Source: a virus (taxonomy: Duplodnaviria > Heunggongvirae > Uroviricota > Caudoviricetes). From it: DNA of 51,595 nucleotides. Location of the stretch: the IMG/VR virus record IMGVR_UViG_2711768017_000018. One strand, written 5' to 3'. Numbering within the stretch: position 1 is the first letter of the stretch; each line of letters begins with the position of its first letter. Shown in pieces: positions 46,801 to 51,595 of this stretch. The position numbers were made by a program.

Positions 46801-49800
46801 CCCTGCCCTGTACCCTGTGGCGAAATGACTTATATCTTGCGGGTGATTGGTGATTCAATGATTGATGAGTACCGCCCGGGAGACATGATTTTTGTTGATC
46901 CTGAAGTCCCTGCCTGCCACGGTGACGACGTTATTGCATTGATGCACGATACAGGCGAAACCACCTTCAAGCGGTTGATAGAAGATGGAACACAGCGTTA
47001 TCTCAAAGCATTAAACCCAAACTGGCCTGAGCCTTACATTAAGATTAACGGTAATTGCTCTATAATTGGTACAGTGATTTTCTCAGGAAAACCAAGAAGA
47101 TACATAATAAAGGCCTAATCAATATTTATAACCTGCTTCGGCAGGTTTTTTTATACTTGACAATGTACCTTTGGGATACATAATGTATCTAAAAGAAACA
47201 CAGCACAGGCAAGATTAAACAAAATTTGGTTGTAACACGGCGTATGGCACATGCGTCGTTAGCGGTCTGGGGACGTTAAAGGGGACAATCCACTCCTTGC
47301 TCGGGCAAACAAACCAGGTAGCCGGAATGTGCAAGTCAATGATGATGCTGATAAGACGCCTAACCAGCGTGGCGATTCGGTTTGACGCCTGGGAAGAGAC
47401 CAGGGTGCAACGATGAGGACATTTATGGAACCGCGACAAAGTGTGGTGCCGTAACTGGCTAAGTGCTCTCAGCGTTGTGGTGAATGCGCAGGCTGATGCG
47501 CGAAAGACATTGCAGCTAATGCGGAAAAGAGCTGTTCGGCGGGGCAATTAAACGCCCGTGAGAGTCTGAAATAACCGCAAGCCGGAGATCAGCACCGGTC
47601 ACCACAACAGCCACTGCTTTGGCGGTACCAGTTTGTACACTTGCTTCCGGCTGGTACCGCTCTTTTTACAAAACAGAGAAGAGCATCACCGGACGACGGG
47701 CTCATAACCAAATCCATCCGGGCGGCTGCCACCGCAGGTGTTCTTCTCTGTTTTGTGGAGAAACCAACCGACCTTGCAGGGTCGATATGATTAGGAGCAG
47801 CAAAATGGCTAGCGAACGCAGTACTGATGTGCAGGCATTTATTGGGGAGCTGGACGGCGGCGTATTTGAAACCAAAATCGGCGCAGTTCTCAGTGAAGTC
47901 GCTTCCGGTGTGATGAACACGAAAACCAAAGGTAAGGTCTCACTCAACCTGGAAATCGAACCATTTGATGAGAACCGTGTGAAAATCAAACACAAACTCT
48001 CATATGTTCGCCCGACTAACCGCGGGAAAATTTCCGAAGAAGACACCACCGAAACGCCGATGTATGTCAATCGCGGTGGTCGCCTGACTATTCTGCAGGA
48101 AGACCAGGGACAATTACTGACTCTTGCCGGTGAACCTGACGGAAAACTCCGCGCAGCAGGTCATTAATATCGTTCTTAATTAACCGATTATTTATCTCAT
48201 CACTGAATATCTTTATATAGTGAGGACTTATTATGTCTCAGAACTTAGACGCAACCGCAATTAATCAAATCCATGCCCTTATTTCTGCTCAGGGTGTTAA
48301 TGAAATTATCAGTAAGATTGGTGCCGATGCTGTGGCATTGCCTGAGAATTTCCGCATTCATGATCTGGAAAAATTAAATTTAAATCGTTTCCGTTTCCGT
48401 GGTGCGCTTTCCACTGCCAGCATCGATGACTTTACTCGTTATTCTAAAGATCTTGCAGATGAAGGCACCCGCTGCTTTATCGATGCTGATAATATGCGTG
48501 CCGTCAGTGTTCTTAACCTGGGTACTATTGATGAACCAGGTCACGCAGATAACACCGCCACTCTCAAACTGAAAAAGACAGCTCCGTTCTCTGCTCTGTT
48601 GTCTGTTAATGGCGAGCGTAACTCCCAGAAGTCACTGGCAGAATGGATTGAAGACTGGGCCGACTACCTTGTGGGCTTTGATGCTAATGGTGACGCCATT
48701 CAGGCAACCAAAGCGGCTGCGGCGATCCGTAAAATCACAATTGAAGCGAACCAGACCGCTGATTTTGAAGATAATGACTTCAGCGGCAAACGCTCCCTGA
48801 TGGAGTCTGTCGAAGCGAAGACCAAAGACATTATGCCAGTGGCATTTGAATTTAAATGCGTTCCGTTTGAAGGTCTGAAAGAACGTCCGTTTAAATTACG
48901 CCTCAGCATTATCACTGGCGATCGTCCTGTACTGGTTCTGCGCATTATTCAGCTGGAAGCGGTACAGGAAGAAATGGCTAACGAATTTCGTGATCTGCTT
49001 GTTGAGAAATTCAAAGACAGCAAAGTAGAAACCTTTATTGGTACTTTCACCGCCTGATTTCATTACTGCAAATGCCCCTGCGGGGGCATTTACGGAAGCG
49101 ATAATTTTAACTATTGCCGCCCCTATAAAGAACCATTAAACAATAACGTGACGTAGCTATTGATAGTAAATGAAGCACTTGCAAAATAATTGCATTGCGT
49201 ATATATACACACATGTGTTGTATTACAGCGATAATGGTAAAGCAAATGATTAACTCTGAAGCAATTGAGCAACTAATGTGGCTATGGTCCTTATTTGACA
49301 TTAAATTCTTATCTATTCTTGCCGCTGCCTTCACTATATATTTTGGCGTGCAAAAAATATCAAAAAAGGTGACAGTGTCGTATTCAGCAAATGCAAGTAG
49401 AATATATGACATGCATATATCAACCATAATCCTGAATAATAAAAGAGATAATGCAATTGCTATATCTTCAATCAATATGGAGGTTGAAGGTAAAGGGATA
49501 CTACAAGTTATTAAATTTGACTCCCCTCTTCTTTTAAAGAACTATGATTCTTTAAAAGTTGAACCACCAAAATTTAGCAGCCTTTACAATAATGATGGCG
49601 TAGTTAAGTTAGATATTTCTGATAAGTTTCATTTTTATATAATCACGACATCTGGAGATGAAATTAAATGTATTTCTGAAAATAAATATGTAGCACCAAA
49701 CATGGAAAACAAAATAGCTACAGACATAAGAAAATTTAATGGCATTGTCTTAACAAACAGAATGTCTTATATTTTTTTCTATGCAAATGACAACGGAGAG

Positions 49801-51595
49801 AAATACTGCATAATAGATGTTTCATTGTTCATAAATGGTGACAACCCATTTCATTTTAATTTTTTAAAAGAAGATGAATTAAGAGATTTTTCTAGCATCC
49901 TTATTAGTTACGGATATCACCAACAGTTTAAAAGTTATGCATTGTTTAAAATAGACAACCATCTTGCTCCTTCTTTGGTTTTAAATAAATCAATGATAGA
50001 AAATAATATTATTGAAATGAATAAGTAACTCACCGGGTGCAGCCGGTTATGATGGAGAAATGATATGAATACCTTGTTTTTACTGATGGCTGAATTCAAT
50101 ACCCCAAACATTGAACTCTCAGCAGTTAGTCAAAAATACTTTGGTATGAGTCCAGCCACAGCAGAAGCAAAAGCAAACGCTTGTAAGTTGCCTGTACCTA
50201 CATATCGCATCGGTACATCACAAAAAGCAAAACGTTGCATCAATATTCAGGATCTTGCGGAATACATAGACAAAAGACGAGAAGAAGGACGTATCGAGTG
50301 GGAACAGGTCAGAACAGGCAAACAGAAGGGCAAAGAACATCACTAAAGAAAAAACCCGCCTAAAGGCGGGTTTTCAAAAAGCACCAGCTATGATCATGCT
50401 GCTTTGCGACGACGAAGCTTACCCTGCTGCTCTTTACCAGAGACAGTAGCGTGAGTGAACGCATTAGGAGCAGCCTTCATCAGAACTTCAACAGCAGCAC
50501 CCATACCTGCGAATGCTTTCATTGTGTCGAACTTAACCTGTGGCTTGGTTGCTTTTTGATCTTCCATAGAAAACTCCAGAAGCTATACCGAAACAATTCC
50601 TGTTGTTTACTCATCATCAATAGATGATACGCAATATTTATTTTTAAATTTAAGGTTCTTTGGCGTAACTTCATCAGATATATCAAAACCGTCCAGAATT
50701 CTATTGAATGTAGCTTCTGGCATATCATCATGAACGGAAATCTCACCCGATCGCTGCTTTCTAACCATGTTATCCACTCGCCAAATTATAGCTTCAGCGT
50801 AAACAACATAACTTGGATGCTTGATAAAGCGATGATCACCAGAATTCAAGACGCAAGACGGATCGTGGGGGACACCATCCTTGATACTAGAAATATTAAC
50901 AACTAAAACACAATAACAATCGTTAACGGGGTAATAAACAGGATCATTACAAATCACATGAAGATGATTGCATGGCCCAGTTGGGGCAAGCACAGTTCCT
51001 TTCCTGTATGGCTGATAATCCGTCATGATAATTGCAAAGAAAATTCCTTAAGTTTCTGAGATTCTTCCATTTTGCCAATTATACGATTAGCCTCATCCTC
51101 GCTTTTACCCTCACTGATCAGCATTTCTTTCAGGTCTATAGGCTTACGAGAATTGCCAGGATTGTGCCACTCTGGACAAACGCTTTCTAAATGCGTCATG
51201 TTTGCGAGATCAAATCGGTTCATATGCCCATACAGAGAATAGATTTCATCTAAAATCCGGATATCTGCACGGCTCAACTCATCAAAGACCTCGTCTGCAT
51301 CCATTTCCCTCGGATCTGAACGCAACAACACATCATGCCCGTTCGTCTCTATCAGGTTGTACCAGTAGTCACCAATACCTTCAGCCTTACCACGAATCAA
51401 GTTCAGCGTATTCGACATGACTGGACCAAATTTCATAGAGTAAAGGCTATCTTCGCCGATCATCCTGCCATGCTTCAAAATCGACTTGCGGTTAGACAGA
51501 TAGAGCAGCTTCATCAATTTCAGATATGCCATGCGCCCACCTCGCTTAAGAAGTAGGTATGCAGCCATTTGAGCTACTTTTTCTTCGCAAAACAT

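What the first reader, a model, noticed from the sequence alone, without database searches (positions are those of the whole stretch)
49195..50028. Very AT-rich membrane-anchored protein in the pL operon: candidate exclusion or abortive-infection gene
This 277-aa ORF has far lower GC than its neighbours, a single N-terminal TM helix and no recognisable domain. It sits in the early-left operon, where lambdoid phages keep lysogen-expressed defence genes (rexAB and sieB in lambda). Composition and position mark it as horizontally acquired cargo.
Basis: inference. Interest (0 to 1): 0.45.

Follow-up and report, generated by a model that had tools for sequence, protein, structure and literature searches.

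The report
Orphan membrane-anchored prophage cargo gene
This is a real, very AT-rich, 260-residue membrane-anchored protein gene of unknown function that moves as a single-gene cassette between accessory slots of temperate phages and plasmids, which makes it a reasonable but untested anti-phage candidate.

Summary
The gene is real, but it starts at the ATG at 49246 (260 aa), not the TTG at 49195 (277 aa). At 29% GC it is the most AT-rich gene-sized stretch in the window. It has one conserved N-terminal hydrophobic helix and matches no Pfam, NCBIfam, PADLOC or PDB entry, only PHROG 14996 (unknown function).

It is cargo. A ~927-bp cassette (~49106-50032) replaces the ~4-kb yfdR-to-exonuclease block that sibling dusA prophages carry between yfdQ and xis. 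Relatives (221 representatives) sit alone in other accessory slots:
- just upstream of xis-int
- nin regions
- the P2 primase-portal defence hotspot in Pseudomonas
- small Acinetobacter plasmids

No partner gene is conserved. The gene is under purifying selection but diverges faster than its neighbours.

The predicted topology is N-out/C-in, with an Ig-like sandwich held against the inner membrane and no catalytic motif. The most likely role is a stand-alone anti-phage protein acting at the inner membrane (about 50%), slightly more likely an entry block than abortive infection. This rests on context and architecture only. It is not related to Rex, SieA/SieB, SNIPE or Pdp_Sau. Interest is moderate.

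The parts
49106..50032 (+). Cargo cassette (~927 bp): AT-rich leader, CDS and 4 nt. It replaces the yfdR-to-3'-5'-exonuclease block of sibling prophages.
   Evidence: Megablast borders against E. coli genomes and base-level junction alignments. Sibling slot contents.
49107..49245 (+). 139-bp AT-rich leader with several sigma-70-like hexamer pairs: 49160-49187 TTGATA-16-CAAAAT, 49206-49235 TACACA-18-GATAAT, and by eye TTGCAA-17-TATATA at 49179-49207. Function not established.
   Evidence: Sequence. In the scan the number of promoter-like sites does not exceed shuffles. The E. coli and Citrobacter leaders share the TTGCAA/TTGTAA...TATA block.
49246..50028 (+). True CDS, 260 aa (29.9 kDa, pI 6.2), member of PHROG 14996. 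The finding's 49195 TTG start is a mechanical extension.
49279..49350 (+). Residues 12-35: the single predicted membrane helix. Its N-flank is acidic and its C-flank basic, which predicts N-out/C-in.
   Evidence: KD 1.68. Family-wide K+R is 0.63 in the N-flank against 2.49 in the C-flank. AlphaFold helix at residues 4-38.
49351..49389 (+). Residues 36-48: juxtamembrane segment (QKISKKVTVSYSA), the most conserved segment of the family.
   Evidence: Mean relative entropy is 2.00 against 1.51 overall. Y32, F33 and K37 are among the top conserved residues.
49372..49668 (+). Residues 43-141: Ig-like beta-sandwich domain carrying the conserved NK(R/K)D(N/K) and P-L-x-L-K motifs.
49711..50025 (+). 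Residues 156-260: C-terminal beta/alpha domain with no fold match. It carries 10 of the 18 substitutions between the two E. coli alleles.
   Evidence: pLDDT 84-94. No significant PDB or BFVD match beyond the sandwich. Allele differences.
48233..49057 (+). Upstream neighbour yfdQ (DUF2303), the last conserved gene before the cassette.
   Evidence: Pfam E 7.9e-93. RefSeq label.
49070..49090 (+). 9-bp GC-rich hairpin after yfdQ with no T-tail. It belongs to the conserved flank and is not called as an intrinsic terminator, so pL read-through into the cassette is possible.
   Evidence: Sequence. Absent from the terminator scan. Conserved in a sibling.
50065..50346 (+). Downstream neighbour: PrtN-type excisionase.
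   Evidence: Pfam PyocinActivator E 3.1e-23. PHROG 1300 excisionase E 1.1e-39.
50350..50375 (.). Stem-loop (11 pairs) between xis and the convergent genes. The scan calls it as an intrinsic terminator on the minus strand only. Its stem also has an A-run upstream and a short T-run downstream on the plus strand, so it may also end the leftward operon; this is my reading, not scored by the scan.
47157..47184 (+). Best promoter-like site (TTGACA-16-CATAAT, 11 of 12), just after the cI terminator. Candidate pL.
   Evidence: cI (Peptidase_S24) at 46444-47118.

Best explanation
The gene encodes a stand-alone accessory ('moron'-type) protein of temperate mobile elements.

Shown: it is a real gene under purifying selection. 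It moves as a single-gene cassette among unrelated accessory slots of lambdoid and P2-like prophages, an Acinetobacter phage and small plasmids. It has no conserved partner gene.

Inferred from sequence and model: a short acidic N-tail lies outside, one membrane helix crosses the inner membrane, and a strongly conserved basic juxtamembrane segment leads directly into an Ig-like beta-sandwich and a more variable C-terminal domain. Both domains face the cytoplasm and sit tight against the inner leaflet. No catalytic residue set is conserved.

Proposed mechanism (inference): the protein protects the carrier cell against other phages at the inner membrane. The variable cytoplasmic domains would recognise a phage component that appears at the membrane early in infection, such as a tape-measure or ejection protein or the entry complex. 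The conserved helix and juxtamembrane core would then either block genome translocation (direct exclusion, slightly preferred, about 55:45) or perturb the membrane to abort infection.

Transcription is probably from pL read-through after induction, and possibly from its own AT-rich leader in lysogens. This is not established.
For: - Real gene, correct frame and start. dN/dS 0.24-0.46.
- Cargo: exact borders, present in 99 of 5,426 genomes, replaces a different block in siblings, AT-poor relative to flanks in all ten loci including Pseudomonas.
- Hotspot residence: immediately upstream of xis-int in at least six backgrounds with three xis types. Nin-type regions. Directly beside the portal gene of P2-like Pseudomonas prophages, which is the main P2 defence hotspot between GpA and GpQ (PMC13586616). 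Acinetobacter plasmid next to MazEF, and Acinetobacter phage beside the integrase.
- No conserved partner.
- Fast divergence: 64% identity against 86-91% for the flanking genes.
- Same prophage carries DRT UG17 RT (E 1e-158) plus SLATT (E 1.5e-56) beside int, and a SocA/Panacea pair beside xis. These become adjacent to the target in the circular phage genome.
- Topology and architecture.
- Precedent for N-out/C-in single-pass defence proteins acting on injecting phages: SNIPE (PMC13190303).
- 6 of 8 randomly chosen unknown-function loci in P4 hotspots gave protection (PMC13586616).
Against: - No homology to any defence or exclusion family in PADLOC or PHROGs. No paper or supplement mentions the accessions.
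- No expression, toxicity or phage-challenge data exist.
- Promoter and terminator scans are not enriched over shuffles, so lysogenic expression is unproven.
- The hydrophobic helix is borderline (KD 1.68, core of about 15-17 residues) and the topology rests only on the positive-inside rule.
- The xis-proximal part of lambdoid early-left operons and nin regions also hold many non-defence accessory genes.
- Only 15-32% of unknown P2 hotspot genes are predicted to be defensive.
- The family was found in only one of 50,697 deposited phage genomes across three tblastn queries.
Confidence: 0.5

Rival explanations
1. Abortive-infection variant of the same idea. The protein is an auto-inhibited, single-chain sensor-effector. 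On sensing a phage product in the cytoplasm, its conserved membrane helices oligomerise and depolarise or permeabilise the inner membrane, killing the infected cell. This resembles Pdp_Sau, AbiP or RexB-type outcomes. It is counted inside the 0.5 given above, with this sub-mechanism at about 0.22 on its own.
For: - The helix and juxtamembrane segment are the most conserved part, while the C-terminal domain is more variable, which is a typical effector/sensor split.
- Architecture and size closely parallel Pdp_Sau (278 aa, N-terminal helix, cytoplasmic C-domain, prophage accessory gene, membrane depolarisation; PMC10127798).
- In Pseudomonas it lies 41-49 bp downstream of a STAND-like AAA_16/NB-ARC ATPase.
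Against: - There is only one short helix and no sign of toxicity control such as an antitoxin or regulator.
- 98 of 99 E. coli copies appear uninterrupted.
- The ATPase does not co-diverge with it (91% against 64% identity) and is absent elsewhere.
- The cytoplasmic part is near neutral and not OB-like.
Confidence: 0.22
2. A non-defence accessory or lysogenic-conversion membrane protein. It would modulate host physiology (envelope, stress or colonisation traits) or the carrier element's own biology (lysis-lysogeny, excision, replication timing), with no role against other phages.
For: - Early-left distal regions and nin regions of lambdoid phages carry many accessory genes of unknown, non-defence function.
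- In this window the gene replaced metabolic and recombination-type accessory genes.
- Its recurrent position immediately upstream of xis-int could reflect a role linked to excision or integration timing.
- No defence-family homology.
Against: - It occurs equally in nin regions, in the P2 primase-portal hotspot and on plasmids. This argues against a function tied to one phage module.
- Divergence faster than the neighbours suits conflict genes better than housekeeping accessory genes.
Confidence: 0.25
3. An early lytic-cycle gene that benefits the phage itself, for example counter-defence, host takeover or a kil-like function. It would be expressed only from pL after induction and be silent in lysogens.
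For: - It has the same orientation as pL, and no intrinsic terminator lies between yfdQ and the gene.
- Counter-defence genes also cluster in accessory regions. For example, an Acb2/Tad1-like gene lies in the Klebsiella prophage that carries a homolog.
- An AT-rich gene could be H-NS-silenced in lysogens (inference from established knowledge of xenogeneic silencing).
Against: - In several loci it is a lone gene opposite in orientation to all its neighbours (L043, L044, L005, Acinetobacter phage ABMM1), so it cannot depend on an early operon there.
- It also sits on small plasmids with no phage genes.
- Genes in the P2 primase-portal hotspot are typically expressed from the prophage (background knowledge; Rousset et al., PMC9122126).
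Confidence: 0.12
4. Spurious ORF or decaying remnant with no function.
For: AT-rich DNA generates long ORFs by chance. A 122-aa mechanical ORF overlaps on the opposite strand.
Against: - 221 family representatives of consistent length.
- PHROG match at E 2.9e-178.
- dN/dS 0.24-0.46.
- Confident AlphaFold model, pLDDT 80.
- Conserved motifs across genera.
Confidence: 0.02

Closest known systems
SNIPE / PD-lambda-1 (E. coli membrane-bound nuclease that cleaves phage DNA during injection; PMC13190303)
   Same: Single-gene defence. A single-pass inner-membrane protein with the N-terminus periplasmic and the body cytoplasmic, demonstrated for SNIPE and predicted here. It acts at the site of genome entry.
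   Different: SNIPE is defined by DUF4041 and a GIY-YIG nuclease. Neither was detected here. The target has an Ig-like sandwich, no conserved catalytic residues and a near-neutral cytoplasmic part. It is not a member.
Pdp_Sau (S. aureus prophage abortive-infection protein) and lactococcal AbiP (PMC10127798)
   Same: Prophage accessory gene that replaces other cargo. About 260-280 aa, with an N-terminal membrane helix and a cytoplasmic C-terminal domain. It works alone.
   Different: Pdp_Sau is predicted N-in, has a positively charged OB-fold-like C-domain and halts DNA replication with membrane depolarisation. The target is predicted N-out, is near neutral and Ig-like, and shows no sequence similarity. 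PADLOC returned no match of any kind, though I did not confirm which Abi models it contains.
P22 SieA and lambda/P22 SieB, lambda RexAB
   Same: Prophage-encoded proteins, membrane-associated for SieA and RexB, that protect lysogens. SieA blocks DNA transport across the inner membrane and has a conserved cytoplasm-facing motif (PMC10883804).
   Different: SieA is 162-164 aa with three TM helices and a fixed position between genes 16 and 9 of P22-like phages. RexB has multiple TM helices and needs RexA (background knowledge). The target has one helix, 260 aa and variable locations. It matches only PHROG 14996 among 38,880 PHROGs.
HK97 gp15 moron (superinfection exclusion; Cumby et al. 2012, J Bacteriol 194:5012; not readable here, from background knowledge and its citation)
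   Same: The archetype of a single small membrane-protein moron in a lambdoid phage that blocks genome entry of other phages.
   Different: It is located in the tail-gene region, is much smaller and is unrelated in sequence. Its moron status includes a defined promoter and terminator, which I could not establish here.
Archaeal type IV pilins / archaellins (best Foldseek hit 8fk7_A)
   Different: TM-scores are low (0.24 and 0.42). There is no class III signal peptide or prepilin-peptidase motif in the sequence (direct reading). An extra C-terminal domain is present and the predicted orientation is cytoplasmic. This is an architectural analogy only.

Membership tests
PHROG 14996 (unknown function) | Full-length match to the family profile | tested here: met
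   E 2.9e-178, residues 18-277 of the 277-aa ORF against profile positions 1-260 of 260. All 79 aligned relatives match the same PHROG.
Moron (Hendrix/Juhala sense) | An extra gene present in some but absent from closely related phages, with deviant base composition | tested here: met
   Present in 99 of 5,426 genomes. Sibling prophages carry other genes in the slot. GC 0.29 against 0.46 in the flanks.
Moron (Hendrix/Juhala sense) | Own promoter and terminator, giving an autonomous transcription unit expressed from the prophage | tested here: inconclusive
   Promoter-like hexamers occur in the 139-bp leader, but no more often than in shuffles. No terminator lies directly after the gene. The same holds for loci where the gene is oppositely oriented to its neighbours. 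RNA data are needed.
Lambda RexA/RexB, SieB; P22 SieA | Sequence homology to the family | tested here: not met
   At E <= 0.1 the protein matches only phrog_14996 among 38,880 PHROGs. At E <= 0.001 the 79 relatives match that PHROG, plus one member with a marginal hit to another PHROG.
Lambda RexA/RexB, SieB; P22 SieA | Characteristic membrane topology (SieA three TM helices, 162-164 aa; RexB polytopic) | tested here: not met
   One hydrophobic peak and 260 aa. SieA features taken from PMC10883804.
SNIPE / PD-lambda-1 | [quoted passage not shown] | tested here: not met
   No Pfam hit in the target or in 79 relatives. No PADLOC hit.
SNIPE / PD-lambda-1 | N-out, single-pass, cytoplasmic body | tested here: inconclusive
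   Predicted from the charge bias only: K+R 0.63 in the N-flank against 2.49 in the C-flank. PhoA/LacZalpha fusions are needed.
Known defence systems in PADLOC-DB v2.0.0 | Match to any of the 5,027 defence or candidate-defence models in PADLOC-DB v2.0.0 | tested here: not met
   0 families at E <= 0.1 for the target and at E <= 0.01 for the Pseudomonas homolog.
Defence-hotspot cargo (P2 GpA-GpQ hotspot; att/int-proximal slots) | Located in a documented hotspot of variable, defence-rich cargo | tested here: met
   Pseudomonas homologs lie directly beside the portal gene of P2-like prophages; the hotspot is defined in PMC13586616. In the window, DRT UG17+SLATT and SocA/Panacea flank the att site. 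This is location evidence only and does not prove function.
Type IV pilin / archaellin-like proteins | Class III signal peptide with a prepilin-peptidase cleavage motif ahead of the hydrophobic helix | tested here: not met
   The N-terminus is MINSEAIEQLMWLWSLFDIK..., which is acidic with no G/A-F/L-T-L-I-E-type motif. Fold similarity is limited to the helix plus sandwich.
Two-gene system with an upstream ATPase or nuclease | A conserved partner gene across family members | tested here: not met
   The upstream neighbours (Pseudomonas 455-aa AAA_16/NB-ARC, Citrobacter 477 aa, Acinetobacter 427-aa HNH-like, Buttiauxella 314-aa HNH_2) showed no similarity in any of the four pairs compared, out of six possible. 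Many loci have none.

The most novel reading that the evidence does not exclude
PHROG 14996 is a previously unrecognised family of single-gene, non-enzymatic anti-phage proteins. It would be a membrane-tethered, cytoplasm-facing Ig-like 'gatekeeper' that recognises injection-associated phage proteins at the inner leaflet and blocks genome entry, or triggers membrane collapse. In effect this would be SNIPE-like spatial self/non-self discrimination without a nuclease, shared among lambdoid and P2-like prophages and plasmids across Enterobacteriaceae, Pseudomonas and Acinetobacter.
Probability: 0.3. Interest if true: 0.6.

Novelty: new variant of a known kind. Interest (0 to 1): 0.4.

Why it matters
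If it is a defence gene, it would add a new, very compact family (one gene, about 0.9 kb including its leader) to the short list of membrane-anchored systems that act at the point of phage genome entry. It has a binding-type Ig fold in place of an enzyme, which makes it useful for asking how phage entry complexes are recognised from the cytoplasmic side.

It also shows how lambdoid prophages swap whole blocks of early-left genes for single cargo genes at exact module borders. It is cheap to test, because the cassette is small and the gene is present in about 2% of complete E. coli genomes, including O25b:H4 (an ST131-associated serotype), ST648 and Shigella sonnei.

If it is not a defence gene, it remains an ordinary orphan moron. 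Thousands of those exist.

Tried and rejected
- Sequence homology to characterised families: Pfam, NCBIfam, PADLOC and a PDB profile search were all negative, including scans of 79 relatives.
- A conserved partner gene was rejected. A functional ATPase pairing in Pseudomonas is doubtful because the two genes do not co-diverge.
- A conserved promoter in the leader was not found. Leaders do not align except between E. coli and Citrobacter, and consensus scans are not enriched.
- Positive selection between alleles was not found (omega 0.24-0.46).
- Literature: accession and PHROG searches found nothing, and the DefensePredictor supplements have no hit. The new P4-hotspot systems (Bandua, Aernus, Toga, Reve, Crouga, Hailong) have unrelated domain content. 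Brenes & Laub 2025 could not be read.
- The apparent GC minimum near 10.7 kb is an artefact of masked N runs.
- Locus retrieval with broad alignments failed for lack of conserved stretches. One distant member found no viral contig.

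
Full report
**1. The observation**

The listed ORF 49195-50028 (+) exists. Its first 17 codons come from the ORF-listing rule, which takes the first TTG after a stop.
- PHROG 14996 aligns residues 18-277 to profile positions 1-260 of 260 (E 2.9e-178).
- RefSeq annotates the 783-nt CDS in an identical copy (WP_047654657).
- All close homologs begin with the equivalent MINxK motif.

The gene is therefore 49246-50028, 260 aa.

Its GC content is 0.290 (GC3 0.264), against 0.494 for the window and 0.41-0.50 for the adjacent genes. The window contains five masked N runs that create a false GC minimum near 10.7 kb. Once those are excluded, the gene is the lowest-GC 783-nt stretch of the whole window.

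A single hydrophobic segment gives a Kyte-Doolittle maximum of 1.68 at residues 13-31. This is borderline, but it recurs at the same place in 79 relatives (median 1.66), and most have no comparable second peak (median 1.03, maximum 1.70). Pfam, PADLOC, NCBIfam and a PDB profile search find nothing significant.

**2. It is a real gene**
- The two E. coli alleles differ by 32-36 nt, with dN/dS 0.33-0.46. Closer alleles give 0.24-0.30.
- A word-indexed search of 5.8 billion proteins finds only 11 clusters, all enterobacterial and unnamed.
- An exhaustive profile search of 1.84 billion representatives finds 221 at E <= 1e-3. Nearly all full-length ones are 235-280 aa with the same layout.
- AlphaFold with the 11-sequence alignment gives mean pLDDT 80.4 and pTM 0.66. 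The model has a helix at residues 4-38, a beta-rich region at 43-141, a low-confidence loop at 145-152 and a beta/alpha region at 156-260.

**3. Genomic setting**

The window is a lambdoid prophage inserted in dusA.
- Left end: dusA (542-1579, Dus, E 7.8e-105) and the integrase (1668-2765).
- The late and replication genes are on the minus strand.
- Plus strand: cI (46444-47118, Peptidase_S24), a terminator, the best promoter-like site (47157-47184), yfdP, yfdQ (DUF2303), the target, a PrtN-type excisionase (50065-50346) and a terminator-like stem-loop (50350-50375).
- A SocA/Panacea gene pair lies on the minus strand beyond that. In an identical prophage, a partial dusA copy (attR) follows about 0.3 kb later.

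The gene is therefore the last cargo before xis, about 1.9 kb from attR. Because xis and int lie at opposite prophage ends, three modules become contiguous around attP in the circular phage genome: the target, the SocA/Panacea pair, and the AT-rich pair next to int. That pair is a SLATT protein (PADLOC RTasSLATT, E 1.5e-56) plus a UG17 reverse transcriptase (E 1.1e-158), which is a DRT defence system.

**4. It is cargo with exact borders**
- About 2,760 complete E. coli genomes share the yfdQ flank, but their homology stops at window ~49105-49107.
- About 640 share the xis flank, starting exactly at 50033, four bases after the stop codon.
- Only 99 of 5,426 genomes contain the gene. It is always single-copy and chromosomal.
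- In sibling prophages at the same site, the slot holds yfdR, a PAPS-reductase-family gene, ead/Ea22, DUF551 and a 3'-5' exonuclease, about 4 kb in total.

The ~927-bp cassette (139-bp leader, CDS, 4 nt) is therefore a replacement, not a simple insertion.

**5. Where relatives live**
- Citrobacter (64% identity): upstream of a 68-aa xis and int, at the edge of four different islands, next to a tail-fibre-assembly fragment. This looks like a prophage remnant.
- Other lambdoid prophages (L014, L020, L037, L038, L042): again immediately upstream of xis-int, with 68-aa or Exc-type excisionases. In one it comes right after cI and a 63-aa gene.
- Klebsiella, Raoultella and others: in nin-type early-right regions.
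- L043, L044, L005 and Acinetobacter phage ABMM1: a lone gene opposite in orientation to its neighbours. In ABMM1 it lies beside the integrase and UmuDC cargo.
- Pseudomonas (25% identity): directly beside the portal gene of P2-like prophages. This is the main P2 defence hotspot between GpA and GpQ (PMC13586616).
- Two small Acinetobacter plasmids, one next to MazEF.

In all ten loci tested the gene is 11-21 GC points below its flanks.

Immediate neighbours differ. They include a STAND-like AAA_16/NB-ARC ATPase (weak PADLOC PDC-S59 match), an unannotated 477-aa protein, HNH-like proteins, ParB-HTH proteins and an MT-A70 methylase. The upstream candidates showed no similarity in the four pairs I compared.

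Between two Pseudomonas prophages the ATPase is 91% identical and the portal 86%, but the homolog only 64%. The gene is therefore an independent, fast-diverging module.

**6. What the protein looks like**

Across 79 members the N-flank of the helix is acidic (D+E 1.57, K+R 0.63 per 15 residues). The C-flank is basic (K+R 2.49, D+E 0.41). By the positive-inside rule, the short N-tail is outside and the ~220-residue body is cytoplasmic.

The most conserved segment is the juxtamembrane stretch at residues 36-48 (relative entropy 2.00 against 1.51 overall). The helix itself (1.60) is as conserved as the globular parts (1.52-1.67). The helix is therefore not a passive anchor.

The top conserved residues are C142, Y179, N65, N200, P94, Y32, Y175 and K37. 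There is no family-wide His/Asp/Glu catalytic set, and the soluble part is near neutral (median net charge +1). Neither an enzyme nor a DNA binder is indicated.

Fold comparisons:
- Foldseek's only hit below 1e-3 is an archaeal type IV pilus subunit (8fk7_A, E 8.1e-4). That hit reflects the helix-plus-sandwich plan. The sequence has no prepilin motif.
- Nothing in BFVD is significant.
- The C-terminal domain (156-260) has no match. It carries 10 of the 18 substitutions between the E. coli alleles.

**7. Interpretation**

Shown: a real, selected, stand-alone gene that is horizontally mobile among accessory and defence hotspots of several kinds of mobile element.

Inferred: inner-membrane anchoring with a cytoplasmic Ig-like module held against the membrane.

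Proposed: an anti-phage role at the inner membrane. I put the overall probability of a defence role near 0.5, split about 55:45 between an entry block and membrane-based abortive infection.
- The entry block is favoured by precedent in enterobacteria (SieA, HK97 gp15, SNIPE), by the lack of any toxicity control and by fast divergence.
- Abortive infection is favoured by the conserved helix with a variable C-domain, and by the close architectural parallel with Pdp_Sau.

The remaining probability goes to a non-defence accessory role (about 0.25) or a phage-serving early function (about 0.12). A spurious ORF is excluded.

Lysogenic expression is not established. Promoter-like hexamers in the leader are no more frequent than in shuffles. 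No terminator separates the gene from yfdQ, so pL read-through after induction is likely.

**8. Comparison with known systems**

The gene is not a member of Rex, SieA/SieB, SNIPE, Pdp_Sau/AbiP or any PADLOC family. It resembles SNIPE in predicted topology and Pdp_Sau in size and layout.

No paper in the searchable library mentions its accessions. The DefensePredictor supplements do not list it, and the newly named P4-hotspot systems have different domains. One directly relevant study, Brenes & Laub 2025, could not be read. This is a gap.

**9. Verdict**

This is a well-defined orphan cargo gene. The defence reading is reasonable but rests on context. It would be a new, unrelated family within a familiar class, single-gene membrane-anchored prophage defence or exclusion candidates. 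Interest is moderate (0.4), because many such orphans exist and no phenotype is known.

Noticed in passing
window 3297-5196 (+): An AT-rich pair (GC 0.33-0.36) between the integrase and the tail-fibre assembly gene. It consists of a SLATT_5 2TM protein (PADLOC RTasSLATT, E 1.5e-56) and a UG17-class reverse transcriptase (E 1.1e-158). This is a DRT-type defence system in the int-proximal cargo slot.
   Followed up: partly
window 50607-51595 (-): A SocA/Panacea-domain antitoxin-like gene (51023-51595, E 1.8e-18) with a 139-aa partner of unknown function (50607-51026, PHROG 19071) lies between xis and attR. Sibling prophages carry either this pair or a different 177-aa gene here.
   Followed up: partly
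window 542-2765 and 50065-50346: The prophage is integrated in dusA. The integrase (1668-2765) is at the dusA end and the excisionase at the opposite end, so attP lies between xis and int in the circular genome. A partial dusA copy marks attR just beyond the window in an identical prophage.
   Followed up: partly
window 10730-10959, 12363-12600, 14220-14446, 17226-17347, 36692-36761: Five runs of N (masked bases). They produce spurious low-GC readings and X-containing translations in the tail-fibre region.
   Followed up: yes
window 5352-5550 (-) and 11626-11824 (-): Two full-length matches to Rfam IS009 (RF02111, 225 and 218 bits) lie inside two tail-fibre-assembly genes. The tail-fibre/Lom region appears duplicated: there are 199-aa ORFs at both 9356-9955 and 15504-16103.
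   Followed up: no
window 45013-45201 (-): C4 antisense RNA (RF01695, 82 bits) and isrK (RF01394, 64 bits) sit side by side in the Ash/antirepressor region.
   Followed up: no
window 47185-47805: A ~620-bp GC-rich (0.52-0.55) stretch lies between the pL-like promoter and yfdP. It has no convincing plus-strand ORF, no RefSeq annotation and no Rfam hit. It is possibly a leader, nut-like region or unannotated RNA.
   Followed up: no
L016 6589-7959, L017 6584-7951, L045 2479-3849: A 455-aa AAA_16/NB-ARC (STAND-like) ATPase in the P2 primase-portal hotspot of Pseudomonas prophages weakly matches the PADLOC candidate PDC-S59 (E 1.5e-7). It lies immediately upstream of the target's homolog. L017 also carries RnlA/RnlB nearby.
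   Followed up: partly
NZ_CP121157.1 4392539-4394275 (hit H1): In one E. coli genome an IS1X2 element is inserted within the 961-bp region that holds the gene. This was the only interrupted copy seen among the 99.
   Followed up: no
L006-L009 5015-6448: A 477-aa protein with no Pfam or PADLOC match always accompanies the Citrobacter homolog, together with a tail-fibre-assembly fragment, xis and int, at the edge of otherwise unrelated islands.
   Followed up: partly
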